A stretch of 64,000 nt of DNA from assembly GCA_963668545.1 (NCBI GenBank), contig OY764868.1, forward strand, positions 848,550-912,549, in the 5' to 3' direction. This document shows, one piece after another, positions 22,149-32,894 of this stretch (positions within the stretch are counted from its first letter, which is position 1; the number at the start of each line of letters is the position of its first letter). The notes under the pieces are model-generated. The model searched no databases. It had not been told where the DNA came from and was given only the letters and a program-made list of their open reading frames with translations. The translations under genes were made by a program, and so were the position numbers. The stretch is from Spirochaetia bacterium (GTDB lineage Bacteria > Spirochaetota > Spirochaetia > CADAEX01).

Positions 22149-22206
22149 ATTCTTTATATAGTGTTAATATGTCCGATAATTTAAGTAGATACGCTATATA
22201 TGGTAT
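22149..22206 (+). promoter_or_regulatory. Tandem NrdR boxes upstream of nrdJ
   Basis: ATTCTTTATATAGTGT (22149-22164) and ACGCTATATATGGTAT (22191-22206), 42 bp apart; both resemble acaCwAtATaTwGtgt. Confidence 0.75.
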
Positions 22207-22229
22207 ATGTATTTCATAACGGAGGTTAT

Positions 22230-24464
22230 ATGTCTGAATTATCACAGAAAATAAGCAGTGAGATCTTTAAAATAAAATATATGCTTCACGGTGAAAAGGA
22301 ACCTGATGAAGTTTACAGAAAAATAGCAGATGAGATAGCTTCTGCGGAAAAAAAAGGAAGAAGGAAAGAGTGGGGGGATAGATTCTACAGTGAAATCAGT
22401 TCAGGACGTCTCATTCCAGCAGGGCGTATACTTGCAAATGCAAGGCCTGAAAGCAGAATGAAAAACTATAACAACTGTTTTACAATTGATATAGAGGATT
22501 CGCTTGAAGGTATTTATGATTCCCTTAAAGAGGATGCTGTCATAAGCAAAATGGGAGGGGGAGTGGGGTTTGATATATCAAAACTCAGACCTAAAGGTGA
22601 CAGTCTTTCAAAGGGGGGGGAATCATCAGGTGTAATATCCTTTCTCAGAATATTTGATCAGTCTGCAAAGACTATAATGACAGGGGGGCAGAGAAGGTCT
22701 GCACATATTGCTCTTCTTGATGTTTCACACCCTGAAATTGAGGATTTCATAACAGTAAAGCAGGGGGACGGAAACAGGGAGCTTACTCAGTTCAATATTT
22801 CTGTGAAGATAACTGATGATTTCATCAGAGCAGTTGAAAAGGGCGCTGACTGGAATCTTGTATACGGTGGAAAAGTATATAAAACAGTCAAGGCAAGGGA
22901 GCTCTACGATCTAATTGCAAGGAATGCATATCTTCATAATGAGCCTGGTATTTTCTATTCAGATACTGTTGAAAAATACAACAACGGATACTGGGCTTTC
23001 CGGATGGACAGGGTCAATCCGTGCGGGGAACTTGTAATGCCTCCCTATTCACTGTGCTGCCTTTCCGCTGTAAACCTTGTCCATTTTGTTGAAAATCCCT
23101 TTACAGATAATGCCTTATTTGACTTTCAAGGGTTTGCTGAAACAGTTTCAACCGGGGTCAGGTTTCTCGATGATGTTCTTGACAGGACTGCTTACCCTCT
23201 TGAAAAAATAAGGCAGTTTTCCCGTCAGTGGAGAAGGATAGGGCTGGGCTTTACAGGCCTGGGGGATGTTTTTGCAATGATGAAGATGAAATACGGTGAT
23301 GATGAATCACTTAAGCTTTCCGCTGAGATCGCAGAATCTCTCCGTAATGAATCCTATAGAGCATCAAGCTGTCTTGCAGCTGAAAAAGGGAGTTTCCCCG
23401 CTTTTGACAGCGATAAATTTCTGAAAGCTGAGTTTGTCATGAATCTTCCCCCTGATATAAGGGAAATGATCAGGAATCAGGGGATGAGGAATATCCAGCT
23501 TAATACGGTTGCCCCGACAGGAACTACATCGCTTTCTGTCGGACAGAACTGTTCTTCCGGCATAGAACCCATATTTTCCCTTACATTCAACAGAAACATA
23601 AGGACAGGGAAGGGTGATGAAACTGTGACAGAGGAGGTGTCTGATTATGCATACCTTCTTTACAAAAATATCACCGGGAGATCAGATGTGCCTGATTATT
23701 TTGTCACAACAAGAGATATAGATCCATACAAATCAATAGATATACAGGCTGTTTTCCAGAAGTATGTGGACCACAGCATTTCCAAGACACTCAATCTTCC
23801 TCCGGGTACCACTTATGATGAATATGTCAATCTTTTCATGTACGGATACAGGAAAGGCCTGAAGGGCTTTACAACTTTCAATCCTGAAGGAAGCATGAAG
23901 GGGATTCTTGAATACAGCGGCGAAACTGAAAAAATGACCAGGAGCCATACAGTAAAAAGGCCCCGGGACCTTGCATGCGAAATTCACAGAATTTCTTCAA
24001 AGGGTAAAAGCTATATAGTTATTGTAGGGATATATCAGGGTTCCCTTTATGAGCTGTTTGTAATTGATGATCCTGAAAAGGATATAGATCTGGGCAGCCG
24101 AAAGAGCGGGATTGTGAGAAAGGTCAGGAAGGGAAGGTATGACCTGATTTTTAAAAACGGGAAAGAACTTACCATGCTGAAGGATTTTACCCGTGAATAT
24201 GATTCTCCTGACGCTTCCCTTGCAAGGTTCATATCAATGGCTCTCCGTCACGGAACACCGCTTCCCTATGTTGTTGATCAGCTTGTAAAGGACACCAACT
24301 TTATTGATTTTGAAAGAAGCGTATCGCGGGTGCTTAAAAAATATATTAAGGATGGAGAAGAGGTTGTCTCGGGAGAGAATATCTGCCCCGACTGCGGCGG
24401 CAGACTCACCTACAGGGACGGCTGCATATCTTGTATTGAATGCGGATACAGCAAATGTTCCTGA
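22230..24464 (+). CDS. nrdJ: Adenosylcobalamin-dependent (class II) ribonucleotide reductase
   Basis: NCF, GGGVG, RVNPCGE, IGLGFTG, TVAPTGT, ISKTLN; C-terminal CPDC...CIEC.YSKC; ATG at 22230 after GGAGG. Confidence 0.93.
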   Translation: MSELSQKISSEIFKIKYMLHGEKEPDEVYRKIADEIASAEKKGRRKEWGDRFYSEISSGRLIPAGRILANARPESRMKNYNNCFTIDIEDSLEGIYDSLKEDAVISKMGGGVGFDISKLRPKGDSLSKGGESSGVISFLRIFDQSAKTIMTGGQRRSAHIALLDVSHPEIEDFITVKQGDGNRELTQFNISVKITDDFIRAVEKGADWNLVYGGKVYKTVKARELYDLIARNAYLHNEPGIFYSDTVEKYNNGYWAFRMDRVNPCGELVMPPYSLCCLSAVNLVHFVENPFTDNALFDFQGFAETVSTGVRFLDDVLDRTAYPLEKIRQFSRQWRRIGLGFTGLGDVFAMMKMKYGDDESLKLSAEIAESLRNESYRASSCLAAEKGSFPAFDSDKFLKAEFVMNLPPDIREMIRNQGMRNIQLNTVAPTGTTSLSVGQNCSSGIEPIFSLTFNRNIRTGKGDETVTEEVSDYAYLLYKNITGRSDVPDYFVTTRDIDPYKSIDIQAVFQKYVDHSISKTLNLPPGTTYDEYVNLFMYGYRKGLKGFTTFNPEGSMKGILEYSGETEKMTRSHTVKRPRDLACEIHRISSKGKSYIVIVGIYQGSLYELFVIDDPEKDIDLGSRKSGIVRKVRKGRYDLIFKNGKELTMLKDFTREYDSPDASLARFISMALRHGTPLPYVVDQLVKDTNFIDFERSVSRVLKKYIKDGEEVVSGENICPDCGGRLTYRDGCISCIECGYSKCS

Positions 24465-24468
24465 ATCA

Positions 24469-24500
24469 AGGCCGGATTTGTTTCCGGCTTTTTTTATTTT
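24469..24500 (+). terminator. nrdJ terminator
   Basis: GCCGGA-TTTGTT-TCCGGC followed by a T run. Confidence 0.75.
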
Positions 24501-25159
24501 TTTATCTGCCTGCTCAGGGAAATCTTGTTTCCCACTTTCTGCCCCAGTCCGTAGGATTCGGGGTCCACCCTGTTGTTGACCCGTTTCTTTCTTACAGTAC
24601 CATAGGTCTCTTCAAGATATCCGCTGTTTTCAGACCTTGTTTTCCCTTCCATTGAGAGGACAAGCTGTTTTTCGTCCTCTGAAGCAGTTTCATCAGCATT
24701 CATTTTTTTAAGCCTTTCATTGATATTTACTACCATGCCGTACCTGAAGCTGTCAGGGTGCCTTACCACAGGATTATATTTTCTGCTTATTCTTGTAATT
24801 GTTTCATGAAGGTACTGGAAAAGGTTCTCTGCCGCATTTACATTTATATCCCTTCCGATAATGTAGACCTTTCCCTCTCCCGGTTTATGTACAGCTTCCG
24901 TGTAGGTCGCGTTCATTATTGTTGAGAGTAGAGCTGATTCCCAGTTTCTCAGCCTTTTCTTATCAAGTATGCTTCTCTCTATTACAGTGTTTTTAGAATC
25001 ATGGCTGCTTATGTCTGTCATTGAGAGGCCGTGTTTAGCGAGAAGCAGGTGAACCTTTGCAAGGGCGGAAGCTGCTTCAGCTTCATTTGGGGAGTCTGAA
25101 AGTGCTATCAGCTTTTTAATTTTTTCAAATATTATTTTATTATCCTTTTCGTCATTCAT
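24494..25159 (-). CDS. DUF2786-domain protein
   Basis: KIKKLIALSDSPNEAEAASALAKVHLLLAKHGL; DSFRYG; C-terminal YGLG. Confidence 0.8.
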   Translation of the reverse strand: MNDEKDNKIIFEKIKKLIALSDSPNEAEAASALAKVHLLLAKHGLSMTDISSHDSKNTVIERSILDKKRLRNWESALLSTIMNATYTEAVHKPGEGKVYIIGRDINVNAAENLFQYLHETITRISRKYNPVVRHPDSFRYGMVVNINERLKKMNADETASEDEKQLVLSMEGKTRSENSGYLEETYGTVRKKRVNNRVDPESYGLGQKVGNKISLSRQIKK

Positions 25160-25319
25160 ACTTTATTCTCCTTGATTGTTGCTGATATGCCAGTAAAGAG
25201 AAACTGTTTTTACTGTATTTGAATACAGGGATTGGATTTAAGGCGGGGAGGGTGATATCCTCTGAAATTCTGTATCAGCTTAATTAATCCGTACTTTTTT
25301 AAATTATAAATCCTGATAG

Positions 25320-25517
25320 TCAGTCCTGTTTTATCTCTTTAACCCGGCCGACATCTCCCGATTCAAGACGTACTTTTATACCGTGCGGATGGAATGAGGA
25401 ATTTGTAAGAATATCCTTTACTGTCCCGTATGTCAGCCTGCCGCTTCTCTGGTCCTGCTTTAAGACAATTGCTACCTGGATTCCCGGTTTTATATCGTTT
25501 CTGTTTCTTCCGTCCAT
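25320..25517 (-). CDS. YwbE-family (DUF2196) protein
   Basis: IVLKQDQRSG.LT.G.VKDILT.S..HPHGIKVRL..G.VGRV. Confidence 0.9.
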   Translation of the reverse strand: MDGRNRNDIKPGIQVAIVLKQDQRSGRLTYGTVKDILTNSSFHPHGIKVRLESGDVGRVKEIKQD

Positions 25518-25519
25518 TG

Positions 25520-26734
25520 CTATTTCCTTTTTCCCGGATAATAAAGGTTTTTATCTGTCAAGTTTTCAAGAACATTACTGATGTAGAGAGAAGCTTCCGA
25601 TTTAGCACCATCAAGGTCCTGGTCCCTGAAATTACCGCAGTCTTCAGCTGTTGCCCCGGGAATTTCACCTTTGTAGTCTGCTATAAAGGTAAACATTTCC
25701 TTTATTACTTCTTTGACATCAGTGGATTTGAGGTCCCCGTGAAAAATGACATAGAAACCTGTCCTGCATCCCATTGGTCCGAAATACACAGTCCTGTCTT
25801 TCCATTCGCTGTTGTTTCTGAGGAATGTTGCCCCGAGATGTTCAATTGTGTGGAGTGCTGCAATATCAAGAACATTTTCCCTGTTGGGAAGCTTCATTCT
25901 GATATCAAATGTTGTAACTGTCTCTTTTCCAAGCATGTCCTGCCTTGAGACGAATATACCTCTATCCATTTTTGTATGATCAATAGTAAAACTTTCTATT
26001 TTATTCATTTCCATTTTATTTTCTCCTCCTGCCCCGGAAGCAAGCTTTTTTATAAGTCCTTTTAAAAGGTTCACAGAATTGGCAGCTGCCACAGGAAGGT
26101 ATTTGTCAAAAGAGATTTCATTACCTTCTGTAAAGATAAGATCAGATATTGACCTTATTATCAGGAAAGGTGTGCTGAACCTGTAACATGCCTGTGCAAC
26201 AGCGCCTCCCTCCATTTCGCCTGCAATTACATCAGGGAAATTGTCATTCACATTATCTATATGCTGCTTTTCATTAAGAAAAAGATCTCCTGAAACAATA
26301 AGCCCTTTATGGATTTTATATCGGCAGTCAAAAAGAGTACAGTCGTTTGCCATATTTAAAAGTTTCATATCGCTTTCAAAATAGAGAGGACAACCGGGAA
26401 CCTGACCTATTTCATATCCGAAAGCTGATACATCAACATCATGCTGTGCAACTTTTGTGGAAAGAACAATATCTCCTATCGAGAGTTTTTTTGAAAAACC
26501 CCCTGCCGACCCTGTATTGACAAGATAGTCCGGTTTGAATCTGTCAAGGAGTATTGCAGATGCTATGGCAACATTGACCTTTCCAATACCTGACTGAAGA
26601 AGGATAATGCTTATATTATGTATCTCCCCTGTAAAAAAGGTGAAGCCGCCTGTTATAATGGTCTTCTTCTTTTCAAGTTCATTGTTAAGGCCGCTTAATT
26701 CCTCCTCCATGGCAACAATAATTCCAAGTTTCAT
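25520..26734 (-). CDS. mtnN-luxS: Fused MTA/SAH nucleosidase (Pfs/MtnN, aa 1-~231) and S-ribosylhomocysteine lyase (LuxS, from Met241)
   Basis: Pfs: IIVAMEEE, SGIGKVN, NTGSAGG, EMEGGAVAQ, IRSISD. LuxS: ESFTIDH, FDIR, LHTIEH, GPMGCRTGFY, DCGN. No stop codon between them. Confidence 0.9.
   Translation of the reverse strand: MKLGIIVAMEEELSGLNNELEKKKTIITGGFTFFTGEIHNISIILLQSGIGKVNVAIASAILLDRFKPDYLVNTGSAGGFSKKLSIGDIVLSTKVAQHDVDVSAFGYEIGQVPGCPLYFESDMKLLNMANDCTLFDCRYKIHKGLIVSGDLFLNEKQHIDNVNDNFPDVIAGEMEGGAVAQACYRFSTPFLIIRSISDLIFTEGNEISFDKYLPVAAANSVNLLKGLIKKLASGAGGENKMEMNKIESFTIDHTKMDRGIFVSRQDMLGKETVTTFDIRMKLPNRENVLDIAALHTIEHLGATFLRNNSEWKDRTVYFGPMGCRTGFYVIFHGDLKSTDVKEVIKEMFTFIADYKGEIPGATAEDCGNFRDQDLDGAKSEASLYISNVLENLTDKNLYYPGKRK
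26012..26030 (-). promoter_or_regulatory. Internal Shine-Dalgarno and ATG at the start of the LuxS domain
   Basis: AGGAGGAG-AAAATAAA-ATG (ATG at 26014), in frame with the fusion. Confidence 0.75.
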
Positions 26735-27129
26735 ATTGCATCCCTTTTATCCTTTTATTAACTTTTCTACTATATCAGTATATAACAATATCGGTAATAT
26801 TAAATATTATTAAGTGCAACAAATATAATTCGAAGTTTTTCTGACCTGAAAAAAAGTATTTGAAAGAAGGGCTTCTTATAATTTGGAGCTTGTAAACATG
26901 ATTATAATTCAGAATCCCCGAAGGATTGATAACTCCGGGTAATTTAAATAACTTCTTGCTATATAAAGGTTTAGGGGTGGTTGATTAAATAGTTTTTTTT
27001 TAATACCATCACATTCCCTTCTTCAGGAAAATGCCCGGAAAAAGGATTGAAACTCAACCTTGGAAATTGCTTTATAACTGGATAAATTTCACTGAAGAGG
27101 GAAAAACAATTAACGGGGAAATTTAATTA

Positions 27130-27747
27130 ATGAACGAAACTTTTGTGGCAGTCAAGGACAATACTGCAAATCCTGCTCCTCTGGGGCTTATCGGATTCGG
27201 ACTTACAACAATTCTGCTTAATATCCATAATGCAGGATTCTATCCGCTCAACTCAATGATCATGGGTATGGGAATCTTTGTCGGAGGGCTTGCGCAGGTT
27301 GTTGCAGGCATACTTGAGGCAAGGAAAAACAACACTTTCGGTACGACAGCATTTACTGCATACGGTTTTTTCTGGCTCAGTCTGGTAGCTGTATGGGTAA
27401 TGCCTTCACTCGGTGTTGCAGAAAAAGCATCTTCATTTTCAATGGGATTTTATCTCCTTCTCTGGGGGCTTTTTACTCTAGGTCTGTTTTTGGGGACATT
27501 TAAGATGACAAGGGTACATCAGATCATTTTCGGCTCACTGGCACTCCTCTTCTTTCTTCTTGCAGCAGGGGATTTTACAGGAATCAGCCTGATCAAAGTA
27601 ATTGCCGGGTTTGTAGGAATAATATGCGGATTGTCAGCCTTTTACGGATGCATAGCACAGGTACTGAATGAAGTTTACGGGAAAACAGTTCTTCCCATGG
27701 ACAGGTTTCCTGCACTTAAAGTGCTTGCTGCTGCAATTTCTGAATAA
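27130..27747 (+). CDS. satP: Acetate/succinate transporter, GPR1/FUN34/YaaH family
   Basis: ANPAPLGLIGFGLTT, NTFGTTAFTAYGFFW. Confidence 0.93.
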   Translation: MNETFVAVKDNTANPAPLGLIGFGLTTILLNIHNAGFYPLNSMIMGMGIFVGGLAQVVAGILEARKNNTFGTTAFTAYGFFWLSLVAVWVMPSLGVAEKASSFSMGFYLLLWGLFTLGLFLGTFKMTRVHQIIFGSLALLFFLLAAGDFTGISLIKVIAGFVGIICGLSAFYGCIAQVLNEVYGKTVLPMDRFPALKVLAAAISE

Positions 27748-27798
27748 CAGGATTACAGAATCTCTTTTGTTGTTTTACAAGCTTTAAAACAGTAATTC

Positions 27799-27840
27799 AT
27801 CAGCTTTCCACAGTGTATGATTTTGGAAAGCTGATATTTT
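27799..27840. terminator. Probable terminator between satP and ogt
   Basis: ATCAGCTTTCCA...TGGAAAGCTGAT followed by ATTTT. Confidence 0.55.
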
Positions 27841-27920
27841 CAACCGGAAATATGGGGAGTAAAAACCTGTTTTATTATTACAGGAAGAATAATCCGTTTA
27901 AAAACTGAATTTTCAGACAA

Positions 27921-28412
27921 TTATTTATTGTCATCTGTATTCTGTGCTTCAAAGTCAAGCAGCAGTCTTTTCATCTCAAGGCCGTGGGCAAATCCTGTAA
28001 GCCTTCCGTCTGATCCAACTATTCTGTGGCAGGGGATAATGATCGGAACCGGGTTTTTTGAAACAGCCATTCCCGCAGCCCTTGCACTTCTTCTGTTCCC
28101 TGTTCTCTCCGCAATTTCCGAGTAACTGGCTGTTTCCCCGAATTTAACAGCTGAAACCTCTTTCCATACTTTTTTCTGATATTCCGACCCTTCAGGATTC
28201 AGTCTGATATTGAAGGCCTTTCTGTTCCCTTCAAAGTATTCTTTTAACTGAAGAGCAGTGTCTCTGAAAAAAATATCATTCCGGATCCAGCTGCTGCAGA
28301 TATCAAAGATCCTTTTCCCTTTTCCTGTATTCAGGTGCAGGTTTTTTAATCCGCTTTCATCTCCTGCGAGTATTATTTCACAGTATTCTGTATCAAATCT
28401 TGTATAGTACAT
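27921..28412 (-). CDS. ogt: Methylated-DNA-protein-cysteine methyltransferase
   Basis: GETASY.EIA, ARAAG, NPVPIIIPCHRIVG, K..LL..E. Confidence 0.95.
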   Translation of the reverse strand: MYYTRFDTEYCEIILAGDESGLKNLHLNTGKGKRIFDICSSWIRNDIFFRDTALQLKEYFEGNRKAFNIRLNPEGSEYQKKVWKEVSAVKFGETASYSEIAERTGNRRSARAAGMAVSKNPVPIIIPCHRIVGSDGRLTGFAHGLEMKRLLLDFEAQNTDDNK

Positions 28413-28503: not shown

Positions 28504-28929
28504 CTACATTTTTGATGTATTGTAACTGACTGTTGTGCCGTCTGCATTTATGAGAACTTCATTATCCTTCTGAACATCAAATGTATCTATTTTCCACTCA
28601 AGGTTTTTTACAGGACCGCCTGTCAGTTTCAGAACAGCCTTCATGTTGTTCTTGTTTTTGAGAAATATTTTGCCTGATATTGTTTTGTACAATCCGTAGT
28701 TATCGACTTTCATGGCAGTTAAATCAGCATTATCAAAAGTTACAAGCTCTTCAGTTATGGTCACTCCCGGAGGAGTCTGCCCGAATGCGGCTGTGAGTGC
28801 AGATACAAAGTAAGCCTGGAATGAAACTCCGAAAGCCTGAACTGCCTCTTCTTCTGACGGTTTTGCAAACAGTACAGCAGGTGAAACAAGCAGTACCAGC
28901 AGTATCAACAGGATAATTTTCTTTTTCAT
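28504..28929 (-). CDS. Secreted hypothetical protein
   Basis: MKKKIILLILLVLLVSPAVLFA signal peptide; GAGG RBS. Confidence 0.7.
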   Translation of the reverse strand: MKKKIILLILLVLLVSPAVLFAKPSEEEAVQAFGVSFQAYFVSALTAAFGQTPPGVTITEELVTFDNADLTAMKVDNYGLYKTISGKIFLKNKNNMKAVLKLTGGPVKNLEWKIDTFDVQKDNEVLINADGTTVSYNTSKM

Positions 28930-31769: not shown

Positions 31770-32894
31770 TTATTCAAGGATAAAACCTTTCTCCTTCACA
31801 GCATCCCTCAATGTATCAATTATGGCAGTATCAAGTGTGTTTTCCCCTGCTTCCTTTTCTCTCTCATTTCTTACATATTCATCCCGTTCCCTGCTCAGCT
31901 TTGTAATCTCATCCTGAATTGCTTTCCTTTCATTTCCAAGTGTTTCAATGTATTCCCTCTTTCCCCTGTCATCAAGACCTGCAATTTCCGGGGGAAGGTC
32001 TTCTGAATCCATTTCTTCAAGGTTTATTTCCCCTTCAGCATATGCATCCACTATATCCCATGATGAGTTTGAATAGCTTGAAGAGGATTTTACTTTTGCC
32101 CTTTCAAGAAAGCTTCCCATGCTCAGCTCTGATGCATTGCTGTCCTGTACTGCCTGCATTTCCTTTTTCTCTCTTCCCGCTTTTCCGTAACCGAGGTATG
32201 TACTGTTCAGCATCATGTTGAGTTCCTGTATCCTGTCATCCTGCGGTGCCTGGATATATCTTTCTGAATAATCGCTGTTGATATTCATGTAATTACCGTG
32301 TCCCAGACTTGCTCCATGCTCCCAGTATGTGGAAATCCCCTCCCTGTAATCGCCGCAGAAAATAGTGTTTACTGTAATGTCCCTGTCTACAGCTCGTCTG
32401 CATGATAAACTGTAATCCAGAGATCCCTGATTGAAAGGTTCATTTCCCGCAATAAATATCATTTTAAGTGTTGACGGGTTTCTGTCCCAGTCAAGTTTCC
32501 CTGCTGCTTTGCTTATTACTTCTCCGCAGTATTCACTTCCGCCGTTTGTTGTAAGCTGAAAGAGATTGTGGGATATGTAATCAAGGTCTGTTGTGAACGG
32601 GACAACCTGTCTTATATATCCATGCATTACTGAAAGTGAGTCATTTCCGTATTCATAAAGCGCTACTTCGAGAACAGGATTCTTTCCATCCCTTTTTGCT
32701 TTACCTGTTTCAGATACAATCTTCCAGAGCTGCCCTTTTGCCTGGTTGATAAGTCCGTCCATGCTGTTTGAAGTATCAAGAAGCAGCGCTATCTGAATAA
32801 CCGGTCTTTCATTCCAGCTCTGTGCTGAAAGATCCATAGTCTGTACAGCAAAAACAAATACTGCTGTAATTATAATTGAAGCTGTTTTTTTCAT
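31770..32894 (-). CDS. Secreted von Willebrand factor A domain protein with C-terminal coiled coil
   Basis: Signal peptide; MIDAS LLDTSNSM; IAGNEPF; TVNTIFCG. Confidence 0.88.
   Translation of the reverse strand: MKKTASIIITAVFVFAVQTMDLSAQSWNERPVIQIALLLDTSNSMDGLINQAKGQLWKIVSETGKAKRDGKNPVLEVALYEYGNDSLSVMHGYIRQVVPFTTDLDYISHNLFQLTTNGGSEYCGEVISKAAGKLDWDRNPSTLKMIFIAGNEPFNQGSLDYSLSCRRAVDRDITVNTIFCGDYREGISTYWEHGASLGHGNYMNINSDYSERYIQAPQDDRIQELNMMLNSTYLGYGKAGREKKEMQAVQDSNASELSMGSFLERAKVKSSSSYSNSSWDIVDAYAEGEINLEEMDSEDLPPEIAGLDDRGKREYIETLGNERKAIQDEITKLSRERDEYVRNEREKEAGENTLDTAIIDTLRDAVKEKGFILE

What the first reader, a model, noticed from the sequence alone, without database searches (positions are those of the whole stretch)
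25520..26734. Natural Pfs(MtnN)-LuxS fusion: both AI-2/SAH-recycling steps in one ORF, with an internal start for free LuxS
Seen: one 404-aa frame holds a complete MTA/SAH nucleosidase and a complete LuxS (HTIEH, MGCRTG, CGN), joined by ASGAGGENK. The linker DNA is a strong Shine-Dalgarno (AGGAGGAG, 8 nt, ATG at 26014). Known: Pfs makes S-ribosylhomocysteine and LuxS converts it to homocysteine plus DPD/AI-2; both are homodimers, normally encoded by separate genes. Inference: the locus may make a channelling bifunctional enzyme plus stand-alone LuxS, and two fused dimerising domains could build higher-order assemblies. Caveat: an out-of-frame TAA sits 1 nt before the LuxS ATG, so one base missing from the GGGG or AAAA run would create the fusion artefactually or by recent mutation.
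Basis: partly seen in the sequence, partly recalled or inferred. Interest (0 to 1): 0.72.

Follow-up and report, generated by a model that had tools for sequence, protein, structure and literature searches.

The report
Natural Pfs-LuxS fusion, spare internal start
One gene in this bacterium and its close kin joins two normally separate enzymes that are predicted to recycle the methylation waste product SAH and release the AI-2 signal precursor, and it keeps a strong internal ribosome-binding site that likely also yields the second enzyme on its own.

Summary
Real, not an assembly error. The minus-strand ORF 26734-25520 (404 aa) holds a complete MTA/SAH nucleosidase (Pfs/MtnN) and a complete LuxS, with catalytic motifs intact. 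Three other protein clusters (79-84% identical) are also 404 aa and fused. One lies in a same-genus genome where silent sites are near saturation and both halves are under purifying selection. The fusion likely arose by stop loss in a pfs-luxS operon; such unfused pairs are common in the phylum. The internal Shine-Dalgarno beats 99.4% of internal ATGs and is kept in the relative, so a free LuxS product is plausible but unshown. New here: the genome also has an intact SAH hydrolase and a separate resident MtnN, and LuxS occurs in only 2 of 20 genomes of the order, both fused. So this is an add-on route, most likely salvaging homocysteine, with AI-2 precursor as by-product. The architecture is rare but recurrent (25 clusters, both orders, several origins). 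This scan earlier noted reverse-order fusions on other DNA. Engineered Pfs-LuxS fusions are published; 8 literature searches found no natural one. Channelling and higher-order assembly are untested.

The parts
25520..26734 (-). Fused pfs(mtnN)-luxS ORF, 404 aa
   Evidence: homologues fused and 404 aa
26042..26734 (-). MTA/SAH nucleosidase half, residues 1-231; E12, M174, E175, R194, D198 present
   Evidence: NF004079 and TIGR01704 over cut-off; aligned to solved MTANs; model matches MTAN folds at TM 0.92-0.96 by target length for the top hits; positions
26015..26041 (-). Linker ASGAGGENK, residues 232-240; the fastest-changing part of the protein
   Evidence: residues 232-243 are 8-42% identical among the 4 clade members, against 83-90% (Pfs) and 76-84% (LuxS); the last Pfs helix runs to 236 and is followed by coil
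26023..26030 (-). Internal Shine-Dalgarno AGGAGGAG, 8 nt before Met241
   Evidence: -11.0 kcal/mol against the genome's own 16S tail, matched or beaten by 0.59% of 14,168 internal ATGs
26016..26018 (-). Out-of-frame TAA 1 nt before the LuxS ATG; possible relic of the old pfs stop, absent in G010
25523..26014 (-). LuxS half, Met241-Lys404 (second in-frame ATG at Met243); H295, E298, H299, C323, C366 present
   Evidence: NF002604 over cut-off; aligned to solved LuxS chains; positions
25320..25517 (-). DUF2196 small gene, 65 aa, starting 2 nt after the fusion's stop; likely co-transcribed; also present where the fusion is absent (G011)

Best explanation
This gene encodes one 404-residue protein joining an SAH nucleosidase to LuxS, predicted to convert SAH to adenine plus S-ribosylhomocysteine (SRH) and then to homocysteine plus DPD (the AI-2 precursor), and likely also to make stand-alone LuxS from an internal start at Met241. 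Shown: the fused frame, its conservation in a four-cluster clade, intact catalytic motifs, purifying selection on both halves, a strong internal Shine-Dalgarno, and an intact SAH hydrolase plus a separate MtnN elsewhere in the genome. Inferred: (1) it arose when the stop codon between adjacent pfs and luxS genes was lost, turning luxS's ribosome-binding site into linker code; (2) the lineage gained it as an add-on, since most of the order uses SAH hydrolase and lacks LuxS; (3) its main job is metabolic, giving irreversible SAH removal and recovering homocysteine from SRH, including SRH made by the resident MtnN, which free LuxS would take up, with DPD/AI-2 released as a by-product; (4) the halves help each other by being close, not through a tunnel.
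For: Fusion conserved at 404 aa in 4 clusters forming one clade (100/99 on LuxS; 100/100 on Pfs). G000 vs G010: pS 0.78/0.71 against pN 0.08/0.14 for Pfs/LuxS. Motifs present in 4 of 4 clade members. Unfused pfs-luxS pairs in 21 fetched loci, 13 directly adjacent, including a TAATG overlap (L026) and a 2-nt gap whose LuxS starts MDLKKI, like MDLKKI at position 241 in P0003. SD -11.0 (G000) and -9.0 (G010) kcal/mol, top 0.6% and 2.2% of internal ATGs, and stronger than either gene's own start (-6.2). Chance of keeping such a site under neutral change of the linker: 0.08-0.16 per lineage at distance 0.4, 0.02-0.03 at 0.8. P0002 and P0003 keep G-D-x-x-M at the same place. LuxS in 2 of 20 genomes of the order, both fused; SAH hydrolase in 16 of 20, including G000, G010 and G011, 481 aa and next to metK in G000. 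Resident MtnN over cut-off, only 31% identical to the fused half, in a separate family-wide clade (AU p 0.029 against grouping it with the fused half). Two homocysteine methyltransferase-domain genes in G000. No LsrB over cut-off among the 8 sugar-binding proteins scanned (best 118 bits against 384).
Against: No activity, transcript or peptide data. The SD test is partly circular (the site was chosen because it is strong, and the linker distance includes it), and DNA was available for only 2 of 4 clade members. Position 243 is M/L/L/M, so the Met kept in G010 may be kept for packing. Same-order fusions of other lineages have lost the LuxS Met (P0007, P0008, P0010), so an internal start is not needed by the architecture. 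Gain versus loss is not rooted: the LuxS sister grouping with G340/G177 had SH-aLRT 85 in the quick tree and collapsed in the careful tree. 25 dCache_1 matches (18 over cut-off) leave room for an AI-2 receptor, so a signalling role is not excluded.
Confidence: 0.62

Rival explanations
1. A dedicated AI-2 synthase: because SAH hydrolase already recycles SAH, the fusion is kept mainly to make the DPD/AI-2 signal, for self-sensing through a dCache receptor or to influence neighbours.
For: Metabolic redundancy with intact SAH hydrolase and a resident MtnN; patchy presence within the genus (G011, 97% complete, has no LuxS match); 25 dCache_1 matches, a domain class reported to include AI-2 receptors (PMC7584622, start of abstract in listing; PMC9540692 passages).
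Against: No LsrB over cut-off; dCache domains are generic sensors and were not tested for AI-2 binding; no lsr-like or luxPQ-like genes among the flanking ORFs scanned; both routes also co-occur with unfused genes (G397, 1 of 5 genomes tested; Bifidobacterium longum, PMC524169 passages).
Confidence: 0.25
2. A nearly neutral operon fusion: the stop was lost by chance and tolerated; only the full-length protein matters, and the SD is a relic that has not yet decayed.
For: pfs and luxS are often adjacent or overlapping (13 of 21 two-gene loci; 13 of 13 viral-contig loci with both genes are unfused), so fusions are easy to make; fusions recur in both orders; retention probability per lineage is as high as 0.16 at the linker's own distance.
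Against: The fusion has lasted to near-saturation of silent sites without fission in 4 of 4 clusters; a Gly-acidic pair followed by Met is kept in 4 of 4 while linker positions 232-236 vary freely.
Confidence: 0.3
3. A channelling or self-assembling enzyme: two homodimer-forming halves joined by about 10 flexible residues build closed dimers with direct SRH hand-over, or open filaments or cages whose size free LuxS would cap.
For: LuxS is a homodimer whose active-site access involves N-terminal residues (PMC5029033 passages), which is where Pfs is attached; linker length is fixed in 4 of 4 clade members; MTAN is a homodimer (recalled).
Against: Linker sequence is not conserved and the monomer model does not fix the inter-domain orientation (pLDDT about 72 over residues 231-250, pTM 0.63); both domain orders and varied linker lengths occur; SRH is a freely diffusing intermediate in most bacteria (established knowledge).
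Confidence: 0.15
4. Assembly error or very recent frameshift joining two genes.
For: Out-of-frame TAA 1 nt before the ATG and homopolymer runs in the linker; many single-member LuxS chimeras with unrelated domains exist in the database.
Against: Three further clusters at 79-84% identity with the same length, and G010 fused without that TAA; contigs of public runs show no indel.
Confidence: 0.02

Closest known systems
Separate MtnN/Pfs (EC 3.2.2.9; PDB 1jys, 4wkc, 4f1w) and LuxS (EC 4.4.1.21; PDB 1ie0, 1j6x, 4xch) of the two-step SAH recycling route
   Same: Both domains complete, over NCBIfam cut-offs, catalytic motifs present, same predicted fold for the Pfs half.
   Different: One polypeptide; none of the 49 PDB sequences matched covers both halves; present together with SAH hydrolase, which Sun et al. 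2004 found in only 2 organisms (PMC524169 passages).
Engineered AI-2 'nanofactory' fusion (Protein G-Pfs-LuxS chimera; Fernandes et al. 2010, as described in PMC3564257)
   Same: Pfs and LuxS in one chain converting SAH to AI-2; shows such a fusion can be active (passages).
   Different: Synthetic, with antibody-binding and affinity tags; this one is natural, has a linker of about 10 residues and carries an internal start.
Unfused pfs-luxS and pfs-metK-luxS operons of the same phylum (L026, G177, G340, G349, G397; metK-type gene between them in G412)
   Same: Same gene order; luxS preceded by its own SD; LuxS 53-61% identical.
   Different: Stop codon present; 4 of 5 such genomes tested lack SAH hydrolase.
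Other uncharacterised natural Pfs-LuxS and LuxS-Pfs fusions in metagenomes (P0005-P0014, P0130-P0132, P0138, P0145, P0211, P0222, P0254, P0294, P0363, P0379; earlier scan notes e1-1485935, e1-1376737)
   Same: Same two domains in one chain.
   Different: Separate origins (AU p 0.003 on LuxS; p 0.0016 on Pfs); 14 of the 25 clusters have the reverse order; several same-order ones lack the LuxS Met.

Membership tests
MTA/SAH nucleosidase (MtnN/Pfs) | Family HMM over curated cut-off | tested here: met
   NF004079 259.4 vs 169; TIGR01704 257.7 vs 73.8
MTA/SAH nucleosidase (MtnN/Pfs) | Catalytic Glu12 and Asp197, plus the ribose-binding Met-Glu and Arg | tested here: met
   E12, M174, E175, R194, D198, aligned; Glu12 and Asp197 are named in PDB titles; the roles of the other three are recalled
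MTA/SAH nucleosidase (MtnN/Pfs) | Nucleoside-phosphorylase-like MTAN fold | tested here: met
   AlphaFold2 model, mean pLDDT 94.3; Foldseek top hits MTANs, rmsd 1.5-1.8 A
MTA/SAH nucleosidase (MtnN/Pfs) | Hydrolyses SAH/MTA as a homodimer | not testable with these tools
   needs assay; complex predictor not available
LuxS (S-ribosylhomocysteine lyase) | Family HMM over curated cut-off | tested here: met
   NF002604 212.8 vs 158; PF02664 193 vs 27
LuxS (S-ribosylhomocysteine lyase) | Metal ligands His54, His58, Cys126; catalytic Glu57, Cys84 | tested here: met
   H295, H299, C366, E298, C323; B. subtilis numbering from PMC8233902 passages, mapped by motif and by alignments to other solved LuxS chains
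LuxS (S-ribosylhomocysteine lyase) | Cleaves SRH to homocysteine and DPD as a homodimer | not testable with these tools
   needs assay
AI-2 quorum-sensing system (Lsr or LuxPQ type) | Cognate receptor LsrB or LuxP in the genome | tested here: inconclusive
   8 sugar-binding proteins drawn from the 17 Peripla_BP_4 matches were scanned; none reached the LsrB cut-off, best 118 vs 384; the rest were not scanned; 25 dCache_1 matches untested for AI-2 binding
Gene with an internal in-frame translation start (two products) | Strong, open, conserved SD at a proper distance from an in-frame ATG | tested here: met
   DNA for 2 of 4 clade members only
Gene with an internal in-frame translation start (two products) | Both products detected | not testable with these tools
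   needs proteomics or start-site ribosome profiling
Substrate-channelling bifunctional enzyme | Fixed inter-domain geometry or tunnel; kinetic evidence of hand-over | tested here: inconclusive
   monomer pTM 0.63, variable linker; oligomer not modelled

The most novel reading that the evidence does not exclude
A natural one-gene AI-2 synthase, gained on top of a complete SAH hydrolase route and so free to serve signalling, that makes two products from one gene: full-length Pfs-LuxS, whose two dimer-forming halves link into higher-order assemblies, and free LuxS from a selected internal start that caps or tunes them. It would be the natural counterpart of the engineered nanofactory, and a system where luxS can be deleted without disturbing SAH recycling, separating signal from metabolism.
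Probability: 0.15. Interest if true: 0.75.

Novelty: new variant of a known kind. Interest (0 to 1): 0.46.

Why it matters
Natural Pfs-LuxS fusions were not found in print in 8 searches, though engineered ones are used as AI-2 sources; this clade offers evolved, catalytically complete versions. The long-running question of whether LuxS is metabolic or signalling is hard to test because deleting luxS disturbs the methyl cycle. A genus with SAH hydrolase, with members that have and lack the fusion, is a natural control. The retained internal start makes it a compact model of how operon neighbours fuse while still making one partner separately. The chemistry itself is textbook.

Tried and rejected
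Complex prediction of the homodimer: tool not available, no verdict. ESM Atlas search: not available. Sequencing runs: no RNA holder listed; only contigs, no raw reads. Rfam scan of 24000-28000 at E<=0.1: 0 matches, so no known riboswitch. Promoter/terminator scan: 6 and 2 sites against 6.6 and 1.7 expected by chance, uninformative. The upstream region is conserved with G010 mainly on the side of the divergent neighbour gene, not next to the fusion. Composition gives no sign of recent transfer: GC at the 33rd, GC3 at the 40th and codon adaptation at the 86th percentile of 1,653 long ORFs. Programmed frameshifting to the out-of-frame TAA to give free Pfs: rejected, as no canonical slippery heptamer is seen and G010 lacks the TAA. 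Idea that the divergent LuxS-Pfs family (alignment A2) is phage-borne: not supported; P0254 found nothing in IMG/VR, and of 32 loci found with A2, 13 held both genes, all unfused; the phage-collection hit H2 was also unfused. Tree result against my reading: on the Pfs half, with 44 rows that lacked the unfused viral-contig relatives, one origin of same-order fusions was not rejected (AU p 0.61); after I added those relatives, seen near P0130, it was rejected (p 0.0016). For the LuxS AU test I used 46 of the 94 rows, leaving out long branches (P0131, P0138, P0211, P0252, L105, L112) and near-duplicates. Literature: searches gave no natural fusion; subscription papers and all supplements were not seen, and the LuxS survey's supplements (PMC5029033) might list such proteins. 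Scan look-ups by sequence and by place gave nothing.

Full report
Observation. The ORF lies on the minus strand, 26734 to 25520, and encodes 404 residues with no internal stop. Pfam places PNP_UDP_1 at 2-228 and LuxS at 245-393. NCBIfam puts both halves over curated cut-offs: MtnN NF004079 259 against 169 bits, LuxS NF002604 213 against 158. The Shine-Dalgarno AGGAGGAG (26030-26023), the 8-nt spacer, the ATG at 26014 (Met241) and the out-of-frame TAA (26018-26016) are as described. A second in-frame ATG follows at Met243.

Is the fusion real? Yes. Among the 120 best of 901 homologues listed (from 7,992 candidates scored), 14 carry both domains; three besides the query are 84, 83 and 79% identical and exactly 404 aa. 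One, P0004, is the protein of the same-genus genome G010, which has the stop-free fusion in the same neighbourhood and no TAA at that place. Between G000 and G010 silent sites are near saturation (pS 0.78 in Pfs, 0.71 in LuxS) while replacement sites are not (pN 0.08, 0.14): the fusion is old and both halves are under purifying selection. Contigs from 4 of the 8 listed runs were laid: X1 and X2 match the whole stretch with no difference but are one sample and may be the source; an X3 contig reaches over the linker without a gap but too near its end to count as bridging; X4 does not cover the linker; no raw reads were held.

Active sites. The Pfs half has E12, M174, E175, R194 and D198, in register with solved MTANs; Glu12 and Asp197 are named in mutant structure titles and the roles of the others are recalled. 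The LuxS half has H295, E298, H299, C323 and C366, matching B. subtilis His54, Glu57, His58, Cys84 and Cys126 (PMC8233902 passages; mapped by motif). The AlphaFold2 monomer, from a 79-sequence alignment, has mean pLDDT 94.3 and pTM 0.63; the last Pfs helix ends at 236 and about 10 residues of lower confidence lead into LuxS. The domains fold well but their orientation is not fixed. None of 49 matched PDB sequences covers both halves.

Origin. In a sample of 401 genomes of the phylum, 54 matched at E<=1e-35 and only G000 gave a stop-free match over the full length. The phylum is likely Spirochaetota, inferred from named hits. Of the fetched loci holding both genes, 21 are unfused: 13 directly adjacent and 8 about 1.2 kb apart, with a metK-type gene between them in the one I read (identified by eye). 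L026 has a TAATG overlap. In G177 luxS starts 2 nt after the pfs stop with MDLKKI, the same words that P0003 has from position 241, so Met241 is likely the ancestral start. Stop loss in such an operon is the simplest origin (inference).

How common? Three searches gave 25 two-domain clusters counting the query: 14 of 120 listed, 8 more among 150 listed of 10,991, 3 more among 120 listed of 201 long LuxS proteins. Eleven have the Pfs-LuxS order and 14 the reverse. This is a lower bound, and single-member clusters may be mis-assemblies, since one search lists many one-off LuxS chimeras. The window's four clusters form one clade. All same-order fusions as one clade are rejected on LuxS (AU p 0.003, 46 rows). 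On Pfs they were not rejected in a 44-row set lacking unfused viral-contig relatives (p 0.61) and were rejected once these were added (p 0.0016). So the architecture is rare but arose several times. All 22 fusion proteins checked have Asp at the nucleosidase catalytic position, so the Asn-bearing fusions of earlier scan notes are not among them.

Internal start. Against the genome's own 16S tail the site before Met241 pairs at -11.0 kcal/mol; 0.59% of 14,168 internal ATGs and 4.3% of 1,594 first ATGs are as strong. G010 has Ser at 241 and Met at 243, with its SD moved one codon along (-9.0, top 2.2%). Both exceed the genes' own starts (-6.2), and both regions fold weakly (-3.5 and -0.4 against a median of -4.7). 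In the proteins, residues 232-236 vary freely while Gly-Glu/Asp followed by Met is kept in 4 of 4. Under neutral change of the linker, a site of -8 or better before an in-frame ATG survives with probability 0.08-0.16 per lineage at distance 0.4 and about 0.01 at 1.0; the observed linker distance is 0.82 in total. This is moderate evidence: the site was picked for its strength, DNA is known for only two members, and position 243 may need a hydrophobic residue. I put real use of the internal start at about 0.55.

Genomic setting. LuxS is found in 2 of 20 genomes of the order, G000 and G010, both fused; G011 of the same genus (97% complete) has none. At the same slot beside the DUF2196 gene G011 carries Dabb and DUF2148 genes instead. 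SAH hydrolase is found in 16 of 20, including all three genus members; in G000 it is 481 aa and next to metK. G000 also has a stand-alone MtnN over cut-off, 31% identical to the fused half, that groups with family orthologues in a separate clade. Sun et al. 2004 found both sahH and luxS in only two organisms (PMC524169 passages); later cases exist (PMC6022435 passages), and 1 of 5 unfused genomes I tested has both. No LsrB reached cut-off among the 8 sugar-binding proteins scanned; 25 dCache_1 matches are untested. Composition does not mark the gene as recently foreign.

Mechanism. Most likely the protein takes SAH to adenine plus SRH at the Pfs sites and SRH to homocysteine plus DPD at the LuxS sites (established chemistry; activity here inferred from motifs). 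SAH hydrolase is reversible and the nucleosidase is not (established knowledge). A resident MtnN without LuxS would leave SRH as a dead end, so LuxS, and free LuxS in particular, would recover homocysteine for the methyltransferases present. I rate this metabolic reading above a dedicated signalling role, which the redundancy nonetheless keeps open. Channelling and higher-order assembly remain untested: the complex predictor was not available, and the variable linker and the two domain orders argue against a fixed tunnel.

Comparison and novelty. Each half passes the sequence tests for its family. Engineered Pfs-LuxS fusions make AI-2 from SAH (PMC3564257 passages). Eight literature searches and word searches in PMC524169, PMC6022435, PMC6302742, PMC6090301, PMC9540692, bioRxiv 10.1101/2021.01.05.425418 and PMC5029033 (passages; for the last also abstract and section 7) showed no natural fusion; supplements and subscription papers were not seen. 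Earlier notes of this scan describe reverse-order fusions in gut Clostridia on other DNA. Verdict: a real, conserved, apparently undescribed architecture of two textbook enzymes, a new variant of a known kind. Its distinctive points are the retained internal start and the redundancy with SAH hydrolase. Interest 0.46.

Noticed in passing
proteins P0168, P0304, P0307, P0317, P0319, P0320, P0322, P0324, P0331, P0332, P0335, P0343, P0345, P0353, P0354, P0359, P0360: A recurrent GIY-YIG + LuxS fusion of about 238-244 aa makes up 17 of the 120 long LuxS proteins listed, from several sources; NUDIX-LuxS (4) and HAD-type-LuxS (3) also recur.
   Followed up: no
proteins P0132, P0145, P0211, P0222, P0254 (alignment A2): A divergent 357-386 aa LuxS-Pfs family whose nucleosidase half lacks part of the N-terminal strand region; host unknown; not found fused in IMG/VR.
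   Followed up: partly
L083-L087, L089, L090, L105-L109 (IMG/VR contigs): Viral contigs carry unfused pfs-luxS pairs, mostly with a 4-nt overlap; agrees with earlier scan notes on phage pfs-luxS-metK.
   Followed up: partly
window 22200-24464 (+): A 754-aa ribonucleotide reductase gene sits here in G000 but is absent from the matching locus of G010; similar genes lie elsewhere in G011 and G014.
   Followed up: no
window 25320-25517 (-): DUF2196 gene starts 2 nt after the fusion's stop; the slot upstream of it holds different genes in different genus members.
   Followed up: partly
window 26950-27010 and L071 equivalent: A conserved AT-rich block upstream of the divergent GPR1/FUN34/YaaH transporter gene (27130-27747) is shared by G000 and G010 and may be its promoter or operator.
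   Followed up: no
window 28504-28929 (-) and 31770-32894 (-): Two ORFs (141 and 374 aa) with no Pfam match, conserved in G010, flanking a two-component pair.
   Followed up: no
G397:C1:2804522-2805798 and 3318272-3319723: Another genome of the class with both an unfused pfs-luxS pair and SAH hydrolase.
   Followed up: no
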